DNA of 64,000 bases from a phage, in the NCBI GenBank assembly GCA_024614665.1, contig GCA_024614665.1_4861.1; one strand, 5' to 3'. The translations under genes were made by a program, and so were the position numbers. The notes under the pieces were generated by a model. The model saw only the letters and a list, made by a program, of their open reading frames with translations. It did no database searches and was not told the DNA's origin. Each line of letters starts with the position of its first letter. Position 1 is the stretch's first letter. Below are positions 32,321 to 51,418 of this stretch, piece after piece.

Positions 32321-32352
32321 GAAAAAAAGAGGGGCCGAAGCCCCGTCTTTTT
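32321..32352 (-). terminator. intrinsic terminator
   Basis: Hairpin GGGGC-CGAA-GCCCC with A/T-run flanks. Confidence 0.65.
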
Positions 32353-32932
32353 AACACGTCGCGCCAAGTTCCGAACAGGGATCACCATCTTCCCAGTCGA
32401 AAGCTGACATGCGTGCCCAGTTAAGTTGAATATCCACTTTATCGATTCGACTCAGTCGTACTGCACGATCTTCATTGGTAGCCCATTGCCAAATCTTATC
32501 TTCATCGTACTTCGTCGAAATGCCCGATGTTGCTTCGCGGAAGTGGTCATCGGTACGCATATACGCATTCCCTTTGAACACATCCAACCGCGAAAAGCCG
32601 TTCTCATAACCAGTCGCCATACCGTCATTATACAACTTACGATATTCCGGCATGGCAACGAGGAATGGCTGTAAAGCAGCATTGGCGAACTGGAATTCAC
32701 CCAACTCTTCGATCTGTCTTACCATCTCCACCGCATCGCTATAACGTAATTTACGTGCGGTACTGAATGTTTCACGGAAACGCTCCAGTGAGATTAAGTC
32801 CTGACAATGTTCTTTTACACGGTCAACGAGATCGGGTGCCAGGCTAGACAGCGAAAACGATTCTTTGAATACGCTGAGTGCCCCGCTACCTTCGGTCTGT
32901 TTCGTCCACACCGTGCTACCTTGTAGCCACAT
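32351..32932 (-). CDS. hypothetical protein
   Basis: 193-aa ORF followed by CGAA-tetraloop terminator. Confidence 0.7.
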   Translation of the reverse strand: MWLQGSTVWTKQTEGSGALSVFKESFSLSSLAPDLVDRVKEHCQDLISLERFRETFSTARKLRYSDAVEMVRQIEELGEFQFANAALQPFLVAMPEYRKLYNDGMATGYENGFSRLDVFKGNAYMRTDDHFREATSGISTKYDEDKIWQWATNEDRAVRLSRIDKVDIQLNWARMSAFDWEDGDPCSELGATC

Positions 32933-33185: not shown

Positions 33186-33394
33186 CGTACACCGTTTCCG
33201 TATACAGCAGGTGTGCTAAGACACCCTCCTTATCTCTCGACAAGGCACAGACTATATCTTCACCATAGCTTACGCCTTAGGTGTTCTCCCACTTCGAAGT
33301 CCACTAGGACCCCTACTCGCATTTCAGCGATAGTCGTTGAACATTCCTCTCACGAGGCTTCGCTGCTGATTACCCATTATCACAACCCTTAGCA
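33186..33394 (-). other. putative intron in beta-prime-like gene (boundaries uncertain, may span about 33200-33600)
   Basis: ORF-free gap between beta-prime N-terminal homology and the DFDGD segment; no ORF inside. Confidence 0.45.
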
Positions 33395-34897
33395 CTATTG
33401 TTTAGCATAGGTCATCGTATCTGTTGTTTCAGACTTTCGTCCCCATTTCTGGTAGATACGCTTTAGGGTTTCCCAGCAATTCAGGAGAATACACATCGGA
33501 GGTTTCCCGTCCGATGGGGCTCTTTTCGAACCGTTAGCCATCTTTATCACACGGTCAGAGATACGCAGCGAACACTGGTTAACATCGGTAACAACTTCGT
33601 CGATGAACAGCGTCTGAATAGACAACTGTACCAGCGTTGGGTTACGTAGCGGTATAACCATGATCCCAAGACCGCCTGGGGATTCACGAATCAGTTCTTT
33701 AAAGATTTCGTCTACAAGCGGGTCATACTGCATTGCCGCTTTTGCGACGATACGTTCACACTGCCGCGACGAATAACCCCGGCGTAGCAGTTTGTTCTCG
33801 ATGTGGGTCGACATCAACCCAACCATCCAACGCCATGGTGCTTTTAACTTCCAGGCATCGTGTGGTTCTGAGATAGGTGAGATGGTTGCACGACCACCGA
33901 ACGGAATATGGGTGGAACCCAATTTCGCACGATAGTCACCCGGTTTACCTTCCATAGACTCACGACGGAAGTCCATGTGGAAGTACGTTAACTGACGGTT
34001 CGCTTTCAAAGCGCGACTAATCAGAAAACGCGGTTCGATCGCTTTACGCCGCGTATAAAGTAACGCGATATTTTTCACCGCATCAATAGCACCCGTGAAC
34101 ACTGGGTCTACCATGACACCACGACGACCTTCCTCAGTAACGATAAGTTTAGAGGAGATTAGCGGTAAGTGTCTTGGGAAGAATGCATGGCGTTGCGTTT
34201 CGAATAGCTCCTTCCATTGTAAACGTAAGCGTTCGCCTTCAGCGGCGTTATGCCGATTAGGTGCGAAGATTTCCTTCCAGGCTTCTGGCGTGGTAAGGAT
34301 GTTAAAGATACTAACGTGGTTATCAACCAGATTGCGCAAGCCACGAACGAAACCATGTTCTTCCAATACACGTTTCACAGCATGTGCGCGTTTACCGTCT
34401 GGTTCTTCTATAAGGTAATACGGGTCAATCATCCACATCATCAAGTCATTACCGCGTTCGATAGTGACCTTGTTACGTTCAAACTTCTTCAACTTGCTAT
34501 TAAAGAAAGCATTGAACATTGCCCAGAATCGTGGGTTGACGAAGTTACCCATTTCATCAGGTGCACGTAACCATACATCGGATTCAATTCGATGTTCAGT
34601 TACAACATAGCCACACGTCGGACACTTACAACCGAGATTGTAACGATGCGCGATCGGTGCCGGACAATCCAAACTACAAATCGGTGCAGAGTTCAGTTCT
34701 TCGTCAACGATTCTGTTCTGTACCATGCGATCGATAAGTTCAGCAACCTCGATCGCATCCCCGTTAACAGCGACATCGTTAATAATAGTGGGTGGTTTAA
34801 TACCTTTGGCAGCAGCTTCTATTTGCAAATCGGACAAATAGTTATCCTGACTAACCAACCGGCCGGATATTCCGTAGAATTTTGGTACCTTTCTCAC
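33395..34897 (-). CDS. RNA polymerase beta-prime N-terminal-like subunit, putative exon 1
   Basis: Zn-finger-like CSLDCP...CKCPTC; LRNPTLVQLSIQTLF resembling RpoC NRQPTLHRMSIMAF; catalytic DFDGD absent from this ORF. Confidence 0.65.
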   Translation of the reverse strand: MRKVPKFYGISGRLVSQDNYLSDLQIEAAAKGIKPPTIINDVAVNGDAIEVAELIDRMVQNRIVDEELNSAPICSLDCPAPIAHRYNLGCKCPTCGYVVTEHRIESDVWLRAPDEMGNFVNPRFWAMFNAFFNSKLKKFERNKVTIERGNDLMMWMIDPYYLIEEPDGKRAHAVKRVLEEHGFVRGLRNLVDNHVSIFNILTTPEAWKEIFAPNRHNAAEGERLRLQWKELFETQRHAFFPRHLPLISSKLIVTEEGRRGVMVDPVFTGAIDAVKNIALLYTRRKAIEPRFLISRALKANRQLTYFHMDFRRESMEGKPGDYRAKLGSTHIPFGGRATISPISEPHDAWKLKAPWRWMVGLMSTHIENKLLRRGYSSRQCERIVAKAAMQYDPLVDEIFKELIRESPGGLGIMVIPLRNPTLVQLSIQTLFIDEVVTDVNQCSLRISDRVIKMANGSKRAPSDGKPPMCILLNCWETLKRIYQKWGRKSETTDTMTYAKQ

Positions 34898-48329: not shown

Positions 48330-49151
48330 TCAGCGAAGGGCGTCGGTAGTCTTACCGTGAGAGTTAACCACGTAGACTTCGTCGCCTTTATAAAACAGTT
48401 CGTACAACGCACCGGTACTGATCTGGTTATCAGGATCGTATCCAGATTCTTCTTCGATGCACATTGCGCCAATCAGTTCATCGACTGACCGGTCGCCAGG
48501 GCGAGCGCCTTTTAAAACAGTGACAACGCACTCACCATTAACCCATTGTGAGTGTTCCTGGACATCAGTGAACTCGATAGATGGACCAGGCTCTAATTTG
48601 GCTTGTTGCAGTTCTTCCTGAGTGTAGACAATAATCGCCATGTCGCTATCAGGAGACGGCTTGTACCAACCTAATTTTTCTAAGGGCGTACCGAAACCAA
48701 CGAGTTCGCCGCAGATACTATCCATGGCTTCCGGTTCACATAAATTTGTCGCCAGTACCAAGATAGCGTTGCCCTTATTATCTAGCACGTAGCTAATAAA
48801 CTCGCGTGCGTTGCAGTTAAACACCTCGACCGTTTCCAAATCGGGGATAATAAGGTTGGGGAAAAGCTGCCTCAGGTATACGTGAGCATAAAGCTGACTT
48901 GTAGACAGGCGCTGCTGCCAGCTACAATAATCAGACAAATGCATGGTGTTCGGATCAGGCACATCAGGGGCAACGCGTTTTAACCCCGGATTAAGGGCTA
49001 ACTTTTCATCACCGACAACGATGTCGAAGCGCTCGTTCTCGAGCATTTTTAATGCCTCGCGGAATACACGAGACTTACGGTCACCGATACGAACCTTTTC
49101 ATGTTCGGTAATGATACGGTCACCATCAATCACACGTTTAACTGTAAACAT
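48330..49151 (-). CDS. hypothetical protein
   Basis: ORF 48330..49523 trimmed to ATG (MFTVKR) with AAGGAAAG SD; the longer N-terminal extension is low-complexity. Confidence 0.6.
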   Translation of the reverse strand: MFTVKRVIDGDRIITEHEKVRIGDRKSRVFREALKMLENERFDIVVGDEKLALNPGLKRVAPDVPDPNTMHLSDYCSWQQRLSTSQLYAHVYLRQLFPNLIIPDLETVEVFNCNAREFISYVLDNKGNAILVLATNLCEPEAMDSICGELVGFGTPLEKLGWYKPSPDSDMAIIVYTQEELQQAKLEPGPSIEFTDVQEHSQWVNGECVVTVLKGARPGDRSVDELIGAMCIEEESGYDPDNQISTGALYELFYKGDEVYVVNSHGKTTDALR

Positions 49152-49529
49152 GTTGCTTTCCTTCTTACTACTATTGCTGCTTCTATTGGTAGTCCACGAC
49201 ATATCCCTCGTGGGTGGGTTCGGTGTGTAACCGAATAAGTTTTTCTGTTCCCAGGGCAACGCACCAGGCTTAATTGATTTAGTTGGCAAACCAGGAACAG
49301 AAAAGGGTGAACAGACCAGGGCGCGAGGTGGCTCTGTAAGGATGCGTAAGAAAAACCCAAACGGCCCTGGTCTGTAATTTGGCCCGAAGTCACCGTGTCG
49401 GAGGACAGCCCATGCAGGTAGGCGGCAATGGACACGGTGACCGCGGAAGTGGTTCGTGTTACCCTTGACCCGTGTGTGGATACGCGTCTTATTTCGAATG
49501 CCTTCGGGATAAGGATAACACAAATGGGG

Positions 49530-49605
49530 CGAGCAAACGGACGGATTCGAACCGTCGAAATATCCGATTATGAGTCGGGTGTTAATTCCTCTAACTTCGC
49601 TGCTC
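49530..49605 (-). tRNA. tRNA-like, anticodon CAU (Met or Ile2), imperfect acceptor stem
   Basis: T-arm GACGG-TTCGAAT-CCGTC, anticodon loop CTCATAA, D-arm GTTA..TAAC; acceptor pairing imperfect. Confidence 0.5.
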
Positions 49606-49606
49606 T

Positions 49607-49675
49607 TGCTTTGACCGGTCTCGAACCGGCGACCTTCCTCAAAGAGGTTGCTCTACCTACCTGAGCTACAAAGCC
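49607..49675 (-). tRNA. atypical tRNA-like element (about 69 nt), anticodon uncertain
   Basis: Acceptor GGCTTTG/CAAAGC, D-arm TAGCTCAGGTAGGTAGAGC, T-arm GCCGG-TTCGAGA-CCGGT; anticodon/variable region 3-4 nt too short. Confidence 0.4.
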
Positions 49676-50450
49676 ATTGTAAGGTGCCGGTGCATCCCGG
49701 CGTGTGTTAGTGCAGTCAGCTCCCTCGGGCCTATCTGCGGCAACACGTTGCCCGGCGCACCGACATATACCACAGTAACCTCGTAAAGTCACTCTGGTAT
49801 TGTTCGTTGCATATTACTAAGTTATCACGTAAACGATTTCACCACTTCCAATAATTAACCTAAATTCATTTCTGAATGCAGGTGATGGACTTCTTCTTCT
49901 GAGCCTGGCCATAAGGTCAGGTCTTAGCGTCTCCAAGCACCACCCGCTATCACGTACATTCGTGGCGTACCGGCCGTATGAGGTACCGCGCCTACGGTGA
50001 CACACAGTCACCCTAACACTGGGAACTCAATCCCATTTGATTATCAGATTGTGGATTTACAGGCGTAGCGTAGCGGCTTAATGGGCCGGTGCTTGCCTGT
50101 CCCCTAGGGACGGTTGTCGTGGAGACGCCAGTCTGTAAGTGGGGCCCTTACGGGAAAACCCATCGCCTGTAAACCAAACATGACTGAATACCCAGAACCG
50201 GACGTTTGAAATCAACATCCTGATGTACTGGAGTATTTCATGCATAAACGTGTCTCGTATCGAATGAGGTTATGACCGGTCAGATACCCAGCATCCTGTA
50301 CAAGCGACCTGGTGCTTTGTGTACCTGGCTGCTACGGATTTATCGGTTTACCGTAGGTCTGAGCTGCTACCGGCTCATGCGGGACATCAACCCGCACAAT
50401 CTGAGTAAGTATCATGGCTCGAATAGGGTTAGTGGGCCGAAGCCCACTGT

Positions 50451-50693
50451 TTAGCCAGCATTGAACGATTCATGAACGACGGTCCCAGCAGGATAGTGCG
50501 TAGTGCCGATAAGAGTAACGGTCAGGGTAAGCCCTTCATCCCAGCGCTCTTTCGGTAACCAGCGGCAGTCCATCCAATGACCACAGTCGGGAGGAATTGC
50601 ACACGCGGCTTGCTCCGTAGGAGCCGCCACGATTATGGAATCAAATTCATCGTACCCGATATCGTCAGTTCGTTCTAGCAAGTACAAATTCAT
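50451..50693 (-). CDS. hypothetical small protein
   Basis: 80-aa ORF with GGAGAA SD, just downstream of tRNA-Trp. Confidence 0.5.
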   Translation of the reverse strand: MNLYLLERTDDIGYDEFDSIIVAAPTEQAACAIPPDCGHWMDCRWLPKERWDEGLTLTVTLIGTTHYPAGTVVHESFNAG

Positions 50694-50757
50694 GTTGTTC
50701 TCCTACAGTTGACAAATCTGTGTCTTCTGTGTTGAACCTGAATTCGTTGGCTAAATG

Positions 50758-50834
50758 TGGCGGGGGCACGAGGTTTCGAACCTCGAACCTTCGGTTTTGG
50801 AGACCGGTGCGCTACCAATTGCGCCATACCCCCA
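50758..50834 (-). tRNA. tRNA-Trp (anticodon CCA)
   Basis: Minus-strand GGGGGTATGGCGCAATTGGTAGCGCACCGGTCTCCAAAACCGAAGGTTCGAGGTTCGAAACCTCGTGCCCCCGCCA: canonical cloverleaf, loop CTCCAAA, 3' CCA encoded. Confidence 0.85.
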
Positions 50835-50926
50835 GAATTCTTTAAACGTGTTTATACGGATGCGCTACCCCGTTATCGCAGGCGATTGATGGGGTCAAGC
50901 TTGCGTGCTTCTGACTCCCGCATGAT

Positions 50927-51418
50927 TCACCTCCGTAGTTCGTAAGTGCTAATCTCACCACCGGTGTAGATATCGCATTCGGACGCAATCTCAACAGCAC
51001 GAACCGCATTCGCGCCCATCTTCATCGCACCCAACGCGTACTCGTAACCGCTTCCGGTTGCCAGAGGTGGTGTGGCTTCACTCCACCACAACGACACGTC
51101 GTCTTCACGCTTCCCACCGACTATCGCTTTCCCTGAGGCCAGAAGCATCAGGAAAGTAAAATCCATCTTCGCAGGTAACTGCGAGCTTTGTGTTAACCCC
51201 TTGTAGCCGGGTCTCAAGCGGATAGTTTCCAGCAGGGCCAATTGTCCTGTGATGTCGCCGCTTACCCCGAACACCACAATTCGTTCACCGGTAATCCACC
51301 ACTCCTCGTCAGGAGGACAGACGAATAACTTCTGGGTATTCAGGTTGCAGATATTCGACCCACGGGTTAACTGGCCGTCAGCAGCTAAGACTTTTCCATC
51401 GAACGCTATCGTGGTCAT
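50927..51418 (-). CDS. HslV-like N-terminal-nucleophile peptidase
   Basis: MTTIAFDGK..AADGQLT..VFGVSG..TGSGYEYA..ASECDIYTGGE resembles E. coli HslV including Thr directly after initiator Met; GGAGA SD. Confidence 0.7.
   Translation of the reverse strand: MTTIAFDGKVLAADGQLTRGSNICNLNTQKLFVCPPDEEWWITGERIVVFGVSGDITGQLALLETIRLRPGYKGLTQSSQLPAKMDFTFLMLLASGKAIVGGKREDDVSLWWSEATPPLATGSGYEYALGAMKMGANAVRAVEIASECDIYTGGEISTYELRR

What the first reader, a model, noticed from the sequence alone, without database searches (positions are those of the whole stretch)
49530..50834. tRNA cluster with one canonical tRNA-Trp and two atypical tRNA-like elements
tRNA-Trp(CCA) at 50758-50834 folds into a canonical cloverleaf with encoded CCA. 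Two abutting tRNA-like elements at 49530-49605 (anticodon loop CTCATAA) and 49607-49675 have good T-arms and D-arms but an imperfect acceptor stem and a compressed anticodon/variable region (the second is only about 69 nt). They may be non-canonical tRNAs, pseudo-tRNAs or tRNA-like domains of a larger RNA.
Basis: seen in the sequence. Interest (0 to 1): 0.55.

Follow-up and report, generated by a model that had tools for sequence, protein, structure and literature searches.

The report
Jumbo-phage tRNA-like pair beside tRNA-Trp
Next to an ordinary tRNA-Trp, this Salmonella giant phage keeps two conserved odd RNAs, a tRNA-shaped RNA with no anticodon loop and an unusual isoleucine-type tRNA, which its lineage retained while losing nearly all its normal tRNA genes.

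Summary
All three genes lie on the minus strand of an SPN3US-like Salmonella jumbo phage. tRNA-Trp(CCA) (50758-50833) is canonical. Element 1 (49531-49605) is a CAU-anticodon tRNA of a phage isoleucine (Ile2) type. It has an 8-bp acceptor helix, here with one bulged U, an invariant C27.A43 mismatch and no encoded CCA. Element 2 (49606-49675) has normal acceptor, D and T arms, but its anticodon loop is replaced by a 3-nt cap, so it cannot decode. It also has an invariant G1.A72 mismatch. The two abut and form a tandem module conserved across several genera of Salmonella and Erwinia jumbo phages. Covariation is strong: 97.6-100% of stem cells are paired, and 0 of 500 shuffles reached the observed score. 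In relatives the module ends a large canonical tRNA array. The SPN3US lineage deleted that array but kept these two. So they are neither decaying pseudogenes nor domains of a larger RNA. Element 1 most likely reads AUA. Element 2's function is inferred only: a tRNA top-half mimic acting as a processing element or protein decoy. This is a new variant of a known kind, of moderate interest. An unannotated ~780-nt structured RNA lies just upstream.

The parts
50758..50833 (-). Canonical tRNA-Trp(CCA) with genome-encoded CCA
   Evidence: ARAGORN. Rfam RF00005 65.6 bits over the full model. Conserved in relatives.
49606..49675 (-). Element 2: a 70-nt non-decoding tRNA-like RNA. G1 (49675) and A72 (49607) form a mismatch. 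Acceptor pairs 2-7 are GCUUUG/CAAAGC. The D-arm (UAGCUCAGGUAGGUAGAGCA) and T-arm (GCCGG-UUCGAGA-CCGGU) are canonical. A73 is at 49606. No CCA is encoded.
   Evidence: Rfam 38.1 bits, with 4 nt of the anticodon loop deleted. Top-half covariation: 100% of cells paired and 8/11 pairs with double changes. G1.A72 and A73 are invariant in 16/16 sequences.
49637..49647 (-). Element 2 'anticodon arm': a 4-bp stem CCUC/GAGG capped by the 3-nt loop UUU (49641-49643). There is no 7-nt loop, no U33 and no anticodon.
   Evidence: Sequence and the Rfam alignment. The loop is UUU, UUC or AUC in near-identical phages and is replaced by a 41-nt structured insert in SPAsTU.
49531..49605 (-). Element 1: a non-canonical tRNA(CAU) of Ile2 type. 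It has an 8-bp acceptor GAGCAGCG (49605-49598) / CGUUUGCUC (49539-49531) with one bulged U. The D-arm is GUUA-GAGGAAU-UAAC. The anticodon arm is CCCGA-CUCAUAA-UCGGA, with the anticodon CAU at 49572-49570. The T-arm is GACGG-UUCGAAU-CCGUC. The trailer is GCCC (49530-49527); no CCA is encoded.
   Evidence: Rfam 30.6 bits. The orthologs in several relatives (SNUABM_10, SNUABM_43, phiEaH2, Caitlin, Asesino) are called tRNA-Met(cat) by ARAGORN. Covariation. Isoleucine typing.
49676..49680 (-). Conserved 5' lead-in ACAAU immediately before G1 of element 2. It is A-rich, like an RNase P leader.
   Evidence: Conserved as A(C/U)(A/U)A(U/A/C) in all 16 relatives. ACAATGG is not enriched in the window, so it is not a general promoter motif.
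49676..50450 (-). Conserved, non-coding, structured stretch between the 80-aa ORF and element 2. In relatives it lies upstream of the full tRNA array. It is context for the pair and not part of either tRNA-like element.
   Evidence: 10-20 stops in each frame on this strand in 4 phages, with indels not multiples of 3. It is 77-79% identical to SPAsTU and pEa_SNUABM_29. The core 49883-50095 has 44 predicted pairs, 14 of them with double changes. No Rfam family matches.

Best explanation
The locus is the reduced remnant of a jumbo-phage RNA-gene island on the minus strand. It holds a canonical tRNA-Trp and, about 1.08 kb downstream, a conserved two-gene module. Element 2 is a tRNA-shaped RNA that keeps the acceptor/T-arm 'top half', a D-arm with the elbow GG, a fixed G1.A72 mismatch and A73. 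Its anticodon loop has been replaced by a short hairpin cap, so it cannot read a codon. Element 1 abuts it directly. It is a CAU-anticodon tRNA of the phage isoleucine (Ile2) type, with an acceptor helix one pair longer than normal (an invariant G:C pair at the -1:73 position) and, in this lineage, one bulged U. Neither gene encodes CCA. Shown here: both are under purifying selection for these structures across several phage genera, and the SPN3US lineage retained them while deleting the canonical tRNAs around them. Inferred: they are transcribed together and cut by host RNase P, with the A-rich leaders ACAAU|G and CAA|G. They are then 3'-trimmed and given CCA by the host enzyme. Element 1 is then lysidinylated by TilS and charged with isoleucine to read AUA. 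Element 2 acts through its acceptor/T minihelix and elbow. It could be a processing (punctuation) element for the unusual tRNA next to it, or a mimic that occupies a protein recognising tRNA acceptor ends.
For: The window is 99.3% identical to Salmonella phage SaP7 and 98.5% to SPN3US. Relatives carry 6-12 canonical tRNAs in the syntenic slot, ending in element 2, element 1 and tRNA-Asn. Element 1: allowing the bulge, 103/104 acceptor cells pair in an 8-bp helix, with 3-4 pair types at pairs 5-7. The first G:C pair, the C27.A43 mismatch and the anticodon arm are invariant. With the tool's own controls, 97.6% of cells are paired against 27-47% when slid, 13/21 pairs show double changes, and 0/500 shuffles reach the score. 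Isoleucine typing rests on four results. Element 1 has U12-A23, C29-G41, A35, U36, A37 and A38 of the bacterial Ile identity set (PMC9976931). Its ortholog is annotated tRNA-Ile2(cat) in pEa_SNUABM_29. A prophage CAU tRNA with the identical anticodon arm is typed tRNA-Ile by PGAP. A 90.6%-identical homolog in a distant 222-kb relative carries the Ile anticodon AAU and is the only RNA gene left between the HslV-like and gp262-like genes. phiEaH2 and ChrisDB carry a separate canonical tRNA-Met(CAU), so element 1 is a second CAU species. Element 2: the top half is 100% paired against 27-49% when slid, 8/11 pairs show double changes, and 0/500 shuffles reach the score. G1.A72 and A73 are invariant in 16/16, and no variant has a 7-nt anticodon loop. 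All variants fold with the same closing stem and T-arm. Within the SPN3US clade, all of at least 6 substitutions and 1 indel fall in unpaired positions: (32/70)^6 = 0.009, my own arithmetic. The module is absent from 185,579 cellular genomes.
Against: There are no expression or processing data. No transcriptome paper covering this locus was found. ARAGORN does not call either element in the window, and their Rfam scores are near threshold. AUA is rare in the phage (4.4 per 1,000 codons), so there is no evident extra demand for an AUA reader. Element 1 lacks the Ile determinant A73: it has G in the 8-bp numbering or C in the 7-bp numbering. Its bulged, over-long acceptor could impair EF-Tu binding or aminoacylation. 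In phage 1252 its T-stem is broken. The interior of element 2 differs so much between lineages (at least 4 types) that common descent of the whole element is not proven. Asesino and the 222-kb relative do without element 2. The G1.A72 and A73 invariance could be a by-product of leader constraints on element 1 and not an identity signal for element 2.
Confidence: 0.6

Rival explanations
1. Both elements are non-functional relics (pseudo-tRNAs) left over from the decay of a tRNA array, and they persist only because too little time has passed to erase them.
For: The SPN3US lineage has clearly lost an array: relatives have 6-12 tRNAs in this slot, and the window lost tRNA-Asn and a 264-nt block. 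ARAGORN rejects both elements. Neither encodes CCA. AUA is rare. The loop of element 2 drifts between near-identical genomes. Element 1 of phage 1252 has a broken T-stem.
Against: Stems are 97.6-100% paired across genera, with many compensatory double changes. Relics would accumulate uncompensated changes. Within the SPN3US clade, all changes in element 2 avoid the paired positions (p about 0.009). The two odd genes are exactly the ones retained when the canonical ones were deleted. Element 1 is the sole RNA survivor in the distant 222-kb relative.
Confidence: 0.12
2. Element 2 is a tRNA mimic or decoy. Its conserved acceptor/T minihelix, elbow and 1:72 mismatch bind or titrate a protein that recognises tRNA acceptor ends. 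Candidates include a host toxin or defence enzyme acting on the 3' end or on aminoacyl-tRNA, the CCA-adding enzyme, a formyltransferase-like enzyme or a phage factor. Decoding is irrelevant in this model.
For: Only the top half, the D-loop GG, G1.A72 and A73 are conserved, while the anticodon arm is free to vary or expand. G1.A72 with G2-C71, C3-G70 and A73 resembles the initiator-tRNA acceptor end (C1xA72, G2-C71, C3-G70, A73; my own knowledge). The element was retained after the loss of the decoding tRNAs.
Against: No partner protein is identifiable. The neighbouring genes have no Pfam domain. Asesino and the 222-kb relative lack element 2. The mismatch may only reflect overlapping leader constraints.
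Confidence: 0.15
3. Element 2 is a real decoding tRNA with an unconventional anticodon stem-loop, for example a 2-3-bp stem with the 7-nt loop UCUUUGA and anticodon UUU (Lys). It is annotated 'tRNA-Asp' in Proteus phage 7.
For: Rfam scores it above the gathering threshold. Annotators called it tRNA-Asp in Proteus phage 7 and tRNA-OTHER in SPN3US.
Against: That reading puts C, not U, at position 33 and leaves only two Watson-Crick pairs in the stem. The would-be anticodon changes UUU, UUC, AUC (Lys, Glu, Asp) among genomes about 98% identical. Relatives have a GUAA tetraloop, other non-anticodon hairpins with 3-6-nt loops, or a 41-nt insert at that position.
Confidence: 0.03
4. The two elements are tRNA-like domains of one larger structured RNA that continues into the conserved 780-nt non-coding stretch upstream.
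For: The upstream 49676-50450 stretch is non-coding, conserved and structured. It is contiguous with element 2 in the window.
Against: In SPAsTU, the Erwinia phages and L034, canonical tRNA genes lie between that RNA and the pair. Each element is closed by its own covarying acceptor stem. The 222-kb relative has element 1 alone. Co-transcription remains possible.
Confidence: 0.05

Closest known systems
Phage- and prophage-encoded tRNA-Ile2 (CAU, lysidine-dependent AUA reader), for example the tRNA-Ile next to antiterminator Q in lambdoid prophages (L062)
   Same: Element 1 has the CAU anticodon and the identical anticodon arm CCCGA-CUCAUAA-UCGGA with C27.A43. It also has the Ile identity elements U12-A23, C29-G41, A37 and A38.
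   Different: Element 1 has an 8-bp acceptor with an invariant extra G:C pair, a bulged U in this lineage, G or C instead of A73, and no encoded CCA. The prophage gene has a 7-bp stem and ends in ACCA.
tRNA-His (G-1:C73) and bacterial tRNA-Sec (8/5 acceptor/T architecture)
   Same: Both have an acceptor helix one pair longer than the canonical 7 bp. By analogy with tRNA-His, RNase P would cut one position upstream. That cut would leave element 2 ending exactly at A73 (inference from my own knowledge).
   Different: The anticodon is CAU, not GUG or UCA. The D-stem is an ordinary 4 bp. Only the ChrisDB and SNUABM_6 copies have a long variable arm.
tRNA-like processing signals: mascRNA at the MALAT1 3' end and plant-mitochondrial t-elements
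   Same: Element 2 likewise has a tRNA-shaped acceptor/T-arm module with a defective or absent anticodon, sitting at the boundary of another RNA. Its plausible role is to recruit RNase P and RNase Z.
   Different: There is no sequence relationship, and the Rfam mascRNA model gives no hit in the window. The known examples are eukaryotic or organellar. Cleavage was not tested here.
Bacterial and phage Y RNAs (YrlA), tRNA mimics bound by Ro60
   Same: These are non-decoding RNAs with tRNA-like D and T arms that tRNA enzymes recognise, and some are phage-encoded (PMC4201824).
   Different: In YrlA the 'acceptor' is an internal stem-loop, and the RNA ends form a Ro-binding helix. Element 2 has the normal tRNA topology with open acceptor ends. 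Rfam YrlA gives no hit in the window. No Ro60 gene was seen near the locus.
Phage T4 'RNA species I and II', stable RNAs of unknown function inside the T4 tRNA gene region
   Same: These are also non-tRNA stable RNAs embedded in a phage tRNA cluster (named in the Figure 1 legend of PMC2330249).
   Different: BLAST of element 2 against phages returned only T4-like tRNA-Thr genes. The T4 RNA sequences were not examined here.

Membership tests
Canonical bacterial-type tRNA (Rfam RF00005 / ARAGORN cloverleaf) | Covariance-model score at or above the Rfam gathering threshold of 29 bits | tested here: met
   Trp 65.6 bits, element 2 38.1 bits, element 1 30.6 bits.
Canonical bacterial-type tRNA (Rfam RF00005 / ARAGORN cloverleaf) | Fully paired 7-bp acceptor stem | tested here: not met
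   Met for Trp. Element 1 has an 8-bp helix with a bulged U. Element 2 has an invariant G1.A72 mismatch.
Canonical bacterial-type tRNA (Rfam RF00005 / ARAGORN cloverleaf) | 5-bp anticodon stem with a 7-nt loop, U33 and an anticodon | tested here: not met
   Met for Trp, and for element 1 except the C27.A43 mismatch. Not met for element 2, whose loop is 3 nt. No relative of element 2 has a 7-nt loop.
Canonical bacterial-type tRNA (Rfam RF00005 / ARAGORN cloverleaf) | 3'-terminal CCA, either encoded or added | not testable with these tools
   Encoded for Trp. Not encoded for element 1 (trailer GCCC) or element 2 (A73 is followed directly by element 1). Whether CCA is added needs RNA data.
tRNA-Ile2 (CAU anticodon, lysidine at position 34), for element 1 | CAU anticodon plus the bacterial Ile identity elements A73, C4-G69, U12-A23, C29-G41, A37 and A38 | tested here: inconclusive
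   CAU, U12-A23, C29-G41, A37 and A38 are present and invariant. C4-G69 holds only in the 8-bp numbering. A73 is absent (G or C).
tRNA-Ile2 (CAU anticodon, lysidine at position 34), for element 1 | Typed as Ile, not Met, by isotype-aware annotation of homologs | tested here: met
   pEa_SNUABM_29 'tRNA-Ile2(cat)'. Proteus phage 7 'tRNA-Ile'. PGAP 'tRNA-Ile' for a CAU gene with the identical anticodon arm. The homolog in NZ_CP173450.1 has the Ile anticodon AAU. ARAGORN and Prokka label CAU genes as Met by default.
tRNA-Ile2 (CAU anticodon, lysidine at position 34), for element 1 | C34 converted to lysidine by TilS, and the tRNA charged by IleRS | not testable with these tools
   Requires mass spectrometry or charging assays.
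Initiator tRNA-fMet | 1x72 mismatch plus three consecutive G:C pairs at 29-31/39-41 and a CAU anticodon | tested here: not met
   Element 1 has a paired acceptor end, and its anticodon stem pairs are C29-G41, G30-C40 and A31-U39. Element 2 has a 1:72 mismatch (G.A) but no anticodon.
tmRNA (tRNA-like domain) | Detected by ARAGORN, with a tag reading frame | tested here: not met
   ARAGORN finds no tmRNA in the window. Rfam gives no tmRNA hit.
Y RNA / YrlA | Match to Rfam RF02553, with the acceptor as an internal stem-loop and a Ro60-binding terminal helix | tested here: not met
   No RF02553 hit in 49000-51200 up to E=10. The topology is that of an ordinary tRNA.
tRNA-like processing signal (mascRNA / t-element type), for element 2 | Acceptor/T-arm mimic without a functional anticodon, cleaved by RNase P and RNase Z at the boundary of another RNA | not testable with these tools
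   The structural part is met. Cleavage needs in vitro RNase P assays or 5'/3'-end mapping. This is a 'works like' comparison and not a family membership.

The most novel reading that the evidence does not exclude
Element 2 and its lineage-specific variants are an undescribed class of phage non-coding RNA: anticodon-less tRNA top-half mimics. Their body varies (tri- or tetraloop-capped arm, 41-nt rod, long variable arm). In this reading they do not serve translation. They target a tRNA-acceptor-end-binding factor, for example as a counter-defence decoy against toxins that modify or cleave tRNA 3' ends, or as a regulator of tRNA maturation. Together with the 8-bp-acceptor CAU tRNA and the ~780-nt structured RNA upstream, they would form an RNA-based functional island, which the SPN3US lineage kept when it discarded its ordinary tRNAs.
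Probability: 0.2. Interest if true: 0.75.

Novelty: new variant of a known kind. Interest (0 to 1): 0.5.

Why it matters
Genome notes on SPN3US-like phages count one tRNA, or list a 'tRNA-OTHER', and annotate a hypothetical protein antisense to these RNAs. This analysis shows that the two odd elements are selected, structured genes. Phage tRNAs are currently debated as codon-usage helpers versus counter-measures to host tRNA-targeting defences. A lineage that dropped its decoding tRNAs but kept a non-decoding tRNA mimic and an architecturally unusual Ile-type tRNA is a natural test case for functions of tRNA-shaped RNAs beyond decoding. It is directly testable in SPN3US, which has an established genetic system. 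It also flags that standard tRNA finders miss, or inconsistently label, a conserved RNA module in more than 60 deposited jumbo-phage genomes.

Tried and rejected
1. ACAATGG, which precedes element 2 and recurs before other RNA elements in relatives, was tested as a phage promoter motif. It gave 10 hits against 9.5 expected in the window, so there is no enrichment. The sigma-70 scan found no promoter in 49300-51100.
2. Codon-demand rationale: AUA is only 4.4 per 1,000 codons. This is neutral, not supportive.
3. Neighbouring proteins as clues: the 273-aa, 315-aa and 80-aa ORFs have no Pfam domain and fall in PHROGs of unknown function. The wider neighbourhood gave only a divergent family B DNA polymerase and a DUF.
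4. Known RNA families for the region (tmRNA, YrlA, mascRNA, RNase P, GOLLD/ROOL-type large RNAs): nothing besides tRNA reached the gathering threshold in this region, and nothing meaningful appeared in the 49000-51200 scan up to E=10.
5. Host ancestry of element 2: no E. coli match. The nearest canonical genes are the tRNA-Thr genes of T4-like phages, at 81% over 58 nt.
6. Cellular homologs of the module: none in the GTDB representative genomes. The metagenome scan added only close relatives and one Machinavirus-like contig.
7. Literature: nothing describes these elements.
8. I considered whether element 1 in the window is a fusion made when tRNA-Asn was deleted. I rejected this because its 3' half does not match tRNA-Asn.
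Full report
**Origin and orientation.** The window is an SPN3US-like Salmonella jumbo phage (genus Seoulvirus). It is 99.3% identical to phage SaP7 and 98.5% to SPN3US over 49300-51000. All RNA genes of the finding lie on the minus strand and are co-oriented with the flanking genes. The gene order is: an HslV-like peptidase, tRNA-Trp, an 80-aa ORF, about 780 nt without a gene, element 2, element 1, about 380 nt, then a 273-aa and a 315-aa ORF.

**Check of the observation.**
- ARAGORN calls one gene, tRNA-Trp(cca), at 50758-50833(-). Its CCA is encoded.
- Rfam's tRNA model (gathering score 29 bits) scores Trp at 65.6 bits, element 2 (49606-49675) at 38.1 bits and element 1 (49532-49603) at 30.6 bits.
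Element 2 has canonical D and T arms, but its anticodon arm is CCUC-UUU-GAGG, four nucleotides short. Element 1 has the loop CUCAUAA and a 5' acceptor strand one nucleotide shorter than its 3' partner.
- The two abut with no spacer.
- GenBank annotators disagree about them. SPN3US has 'tRNA-OTHER' on element 2. Proteus phage 7 has 'tRNA-Asp' and 'tRNA-Ile'. Most records have nothing, or a 78-aa hypothetical protein on the opposite strand.

**Context in relatives.** The syntenic slot holds 6-12 canonical tRNAs in Salmonella phage SPAsTU, in Erwinia phages of the genera Machinavirus and Erskinevirus, in phiEaH2, and in a 239.5-kb IMG/VR contig. These tRNAs include Tyr, Gln, Glu, Asp, Ile(GAU), His, Ser, Gly and Met. 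The slot is bounded by homologs of the same flanking genes. In most of these relatives the array ends with the same three genes: an element-2 homolog, an element-1 homolog joined to it by the junction GCA|AGAGC, and tRNA-Asn(GUU). Asesino is an exception and lacks element 2.

The window, like SPN3US, has lost the array, the tRNA-Asn and a further 264-nt block flanked by ACAATGG repeats. It kept Trp and the odd pair. The module was not found in 185,579 representative bacterial and archaeal genomes. A metagenome scan added only further phage contigs.

**Element 1.** I parsed 13 distinct orthologs, allowing one bulge. They give an 8-bp acceptor helix paired in 103 of 104 cells. The first pair is an invariant G:C, the fourth an invariant C:G, and pairs 5-7 show 3-4 Watson-Crick types each. 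The T-stem is fully paired, with four pair types at its third position. The anticodon arm CCCGA-CUCAUAA-UCGGA is invariant apart from one compensated pair in Caitlin and a U33-to-C change in Asesino, and always includes a C27.A43 mismatch. The trailer is usually GCCC and never CCA. One bulged nucleotide in the 3' strand recurs in the window group, MET_P1/SPAsTU, pEa_SNUABM_29, L034 and Asesino. The other orthologs have a perfect 8-bp helix. ChrisDB and SNUABM_6 carry an extra long variable arm.

On the MAFFT alignment, which mis-registers three bulges and is therefore conservative, the tool's controls give:
- 97.6% of cells paired, against 27-47% when the 3' partners are slid;
- 13 of 21 pairs with changes on both sides;
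- a covariation score of 0.403 against 0.136 in shuffles, with 0 of 500 shuffles as high.

So element 1 is a selected, structured gene. ARAGORN misses the bulged copies, including the window's, and also the two long-variable-arm copies (ChrisDB, SNUABM_6). It calls the remaining orthologs, plus the bulged Asesino copy, as tRNA-Met(cat).

**Isotype of element 1.** phiEaH2 and ChrisDB also have a canonical tRNA-Met(CAU) scoring 65-69 bits, so element 1 is a second CAU species. It carries U12-A23, C29-G41, A35, U36, A37 and A38 of the bacterial isoleucine identity set, but not A73 (PMC9976931, Table 1). pEa_SNUABM_29 annotates its ortholog as tRNA-Ile2(cat).

The only E. coli matches are genes that PGAP types as tRNA-Ile:
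- One sits in a lambdoid prophage beside antiterminator Q and a tRNA-Arg. It has a CAU anticodon and the identical anticodon arm.
- The other is on a 221,873-bp circular 'plasmid', NZ_CP173450.1. This replicon is a distant relative of the phage: its HslV-like protein is 34.5% identical and its gp262-like protein 28%. There, the whole RNA island between those two genes is reduced to a single gene. That gene is a 90.6%-identical homolog of element 1 with the same D-arm, an 8-bp acceptor and the anticodon AAU, which is also isoleucine.

I therefore read element 1 as an Ile-type tRNA that most likely reads AUA after lysidine modification. That last step is inferred. AUA is rare in the phage at 4.4 per 1,000 codons, so codon demand does not explain its retention.

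The extra G:C pair can be read in two ways: as a tRNA-His-like -1:73 pair, or as an 8/5 architecture with the next base (G, or A in the distant relative) as the discriminator, followed by CC in most sequences. The sequence cannot decide between these.

**Element 2.** Sixteen sequences were parsed, representing at least eight distinct acceptor stems.
- Acceptor pairs 2-7 are paired in 96/96 cells and the T-stem in 80/80 cells.
- G1.A72 is a mismatch in 16/16, and A73 is invariant.
- The lead-in is A-rich: ACAAU, ACAAA, AUAAU or AUUAA.
- On the concatenated top half, the tool gives 100% pairing against 27-49% when slid, 8 of 11 pairs with double changes, and a score of 0.778 against 0.315 with 0 of 500 shuffles as high.

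The interior comes in at least four forms:
- **Window type and L034:** a canonical D-arm plus a 4-5-bp stem with a 3-6-nt loop. In SPAsTU the same stem carries a 41-nt structured insert ending in a GAAA tetraloop; that fold has z = -4.1.
- **phiEaH2, ChrisDB, Caitlin and pEa_SNUABM_29:** a compact form made of two hairpins, capped by GUAA in phiEaH2 and by 6-nt loops in the other three.
- **SNUABM_10 and SNUABM_43:** a third, different form.
- **SNUABM_6 and L056:** a form with a long variable arm.

Every form keeps a GGU in the first hairpin loop, which is consistent with a D-loop/T-loop elbow. None has a 7-nt anticodon loop.

Among SPN3US-clade genomes about 98% identical, the cap is UUU, UUC or AUC, and position 27 is A, G or C. 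All of at least six substitutions and the one indel fall in unpaired positions; (32/70)^6 = 0.009 by my own arithmetic. The nearest canonical genes are the tRNA-Thr genes of T4-like phages, at 81% over 58 nt. There is no match in E. coli. Element 2 is therefore a tRNA-derived RNA that cannot decode. Its acceptor/T minihelix, elbow and acceptor end are under selection.

**Mechanism.**

Shown:
- structure conservation of both elements;
- tandem linkage;
- absence of an encoded CCA;
- retention of the pair after the array was lost.

Inferred:
- co-transcription with the island;
- RNase P cleavage after the A-rich leaders ACAAU|G and CAA|G;
- 3' trimming and CCA addition by host enzymes, as known for CCA-less T4 tRNAs (my own knowledge);
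- lysidinylation and isoleucylation of element 1;
- a non-decoding role for element 2 through its top half.

For element 2 the simplest reading is a processing or punctuation element for the unusual tRNA next to it, working like mascRNA or plant-mitochondrial t-elements. The more novel reading is a decoy for a protein that binds tRNA acceptor ends. The G1.A72/A73 invariance may be an identity signal; the acceptor end resembles that of initiator tRNA. It may also be a by-product of these bases serving as the leader of element 1. I could not separate the two.

**Rivals.**
- *Relics.* This is contradicted by the covariation and by the selective retention, but it fits the reductive history, the marginal predictor scores and the broken T-stem in phage 1252.
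- *A decoding tRNA with an odd loop.* This is contradicted by C33, by a 2-bp stem in that reading, and by a would-be anticodon that changes amino-acid meaning between near-identical genomes.
- *Domains of a larger RNA.* This is contradicted by the tRNA genes that lie between the pair and the upstream RNA in relatives, and by the self-contained acceptor stems.

**Comparison with known things and novelty.** No paper in the searchable library describes these elements. Genome notes report '1 tRNA' for the SPFM phages. Pseudo-tRNAs are otherwise only listed in phage genome papers. Related concepts are:
- phage tRNA-Ile2 genes;
- the 8-bp acceptors of tRNA-His and tRNA-Sec;
- the tRNA-like processing signals mascRNA and t-elements;
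- YrlA Y RNAs (PMC4201824);
- the uncharacterised 'RNA species I and II' in the T4 tRNA region (PMC2330249).

The pair is best classed as a new variant of known kinds. Interest is moderate: the biology is not yet demonstrated, but the retention pattern is unusual and testable.

**Side observation.** The 49676-50450(-) stretch is non-coding, with 10-20 stops per frame on this strand in four phages, yet it is conserved. A 215-nt core (49883-50095) is about 75% identical in distant Erwinia phages, where it always lies just upstream of the first tRNA of the array. RNAalifold predicts 44 pairs, 14 of them with double changes. The controls give 97.4% paired against 29-44% when slid, with 0 of 500 shuffles as high. 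The caveat is that the structure was derived from the same alignment. No Rfam family matches. It looks like an undescribed structured RNA or leader associated with jumbo-phage tRNA arrays and deserves its own follow-up.

Noticed in passing
window 49676-50450 (-), core 49883-50095: A conserved non-coding stretch of about 780 nt with many hairpins that show compensatory changes. Its 215-nt core is conserved at about 75% in distant Erwinia jumbo phages, always just upstream of the first tRNA of the array. RNAalifold predicts 44 pairs, 14 with double changes, and no Rfam family matches. It is a candidate new structured RNA or leader.
   Followed up: partly
window 33228-33537 (-): A group I intron (Rfam RF00028, 65.5 bits, full model) lying between or overlapping the minus-strand ORFs 33395-34897 (500 aa) and 32351-32932 (193 aa). 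The host gene was not identified.
   Followed up: no
window 49428-49664 (+): A 78-aa ORF, annotated as a hypothetical protein in SPN3US (gp263) and many relatives, runs antisense across both tRNA-like elements. Because the RNA structures covary on the other strand, this is probably a mis-annotation.
   Followed up: partly
L004 1527-1790 (SPLA5c); also in L005, L006, L007 and L008; absent from the window at about 49675/49676: A 264-nt block flanked by ACAATGG repeats is deleted in the window and in SPN3US. It begins with a cloverleaf-like element of about 95 nt: GGGAGCG...CGUUCCC closes three hairpins, one with a T-loop-like AUUCGUA and one with a GGAA tetraloop. By eye, the element is conserved with compensatory changes in Erwinia phages.
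   Followed up: partly
L007 about 1527-1603 (and the L008 counterpart); L052 2360-2480 and L019 upstream of 3565: Relatives' arrays contain further non-decoding tRNA-like elements. One has an anticodon arm capped by UUCG (CUCAUC-UUCG-GAUGAG in SNUABM_10, against CUUACC...GGUAAG in SNUABM_43). Another is a 121-nt element annotated 'tRNA-Ile(aat)' in Asesino and also present in phiEaH2.
   Followed up: partly
L063 (NZ_CP173450.1 147500-154500): A 221,873-bp circular E. coli 'plasmid', with almost all of its listed genes hypothetical, encodes HslV-like and gp262-like proteins 28-35% identical to the window's. It also carries a homolog of element 1 with an AAU anticodon. It looks like a jumbo-phage genome deposited as a plasmid.
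   Followed up: partly
L005 1999-2538 (Salmonella phage 1252): A 180-aa CDS is inserted directly downstream of element 1, and the T-stem and 3' acceptor strand of element 1 are disrupted there. It may be a mobile (homing-endonuclease-like) insertion.
   Followed up: no
L003 1727-1884 against window 49527-49605: MET_P1_082_240 is about 98% identical to the window in the flanks. Yet it carries a SPAsTU-like 3' half of element 1, with 8 substitutions in 35 nt that all preserve pairing, plus an intact tRNA-Asn. This indicates mosaic recombination within the RNA island.
   Followed up: partly
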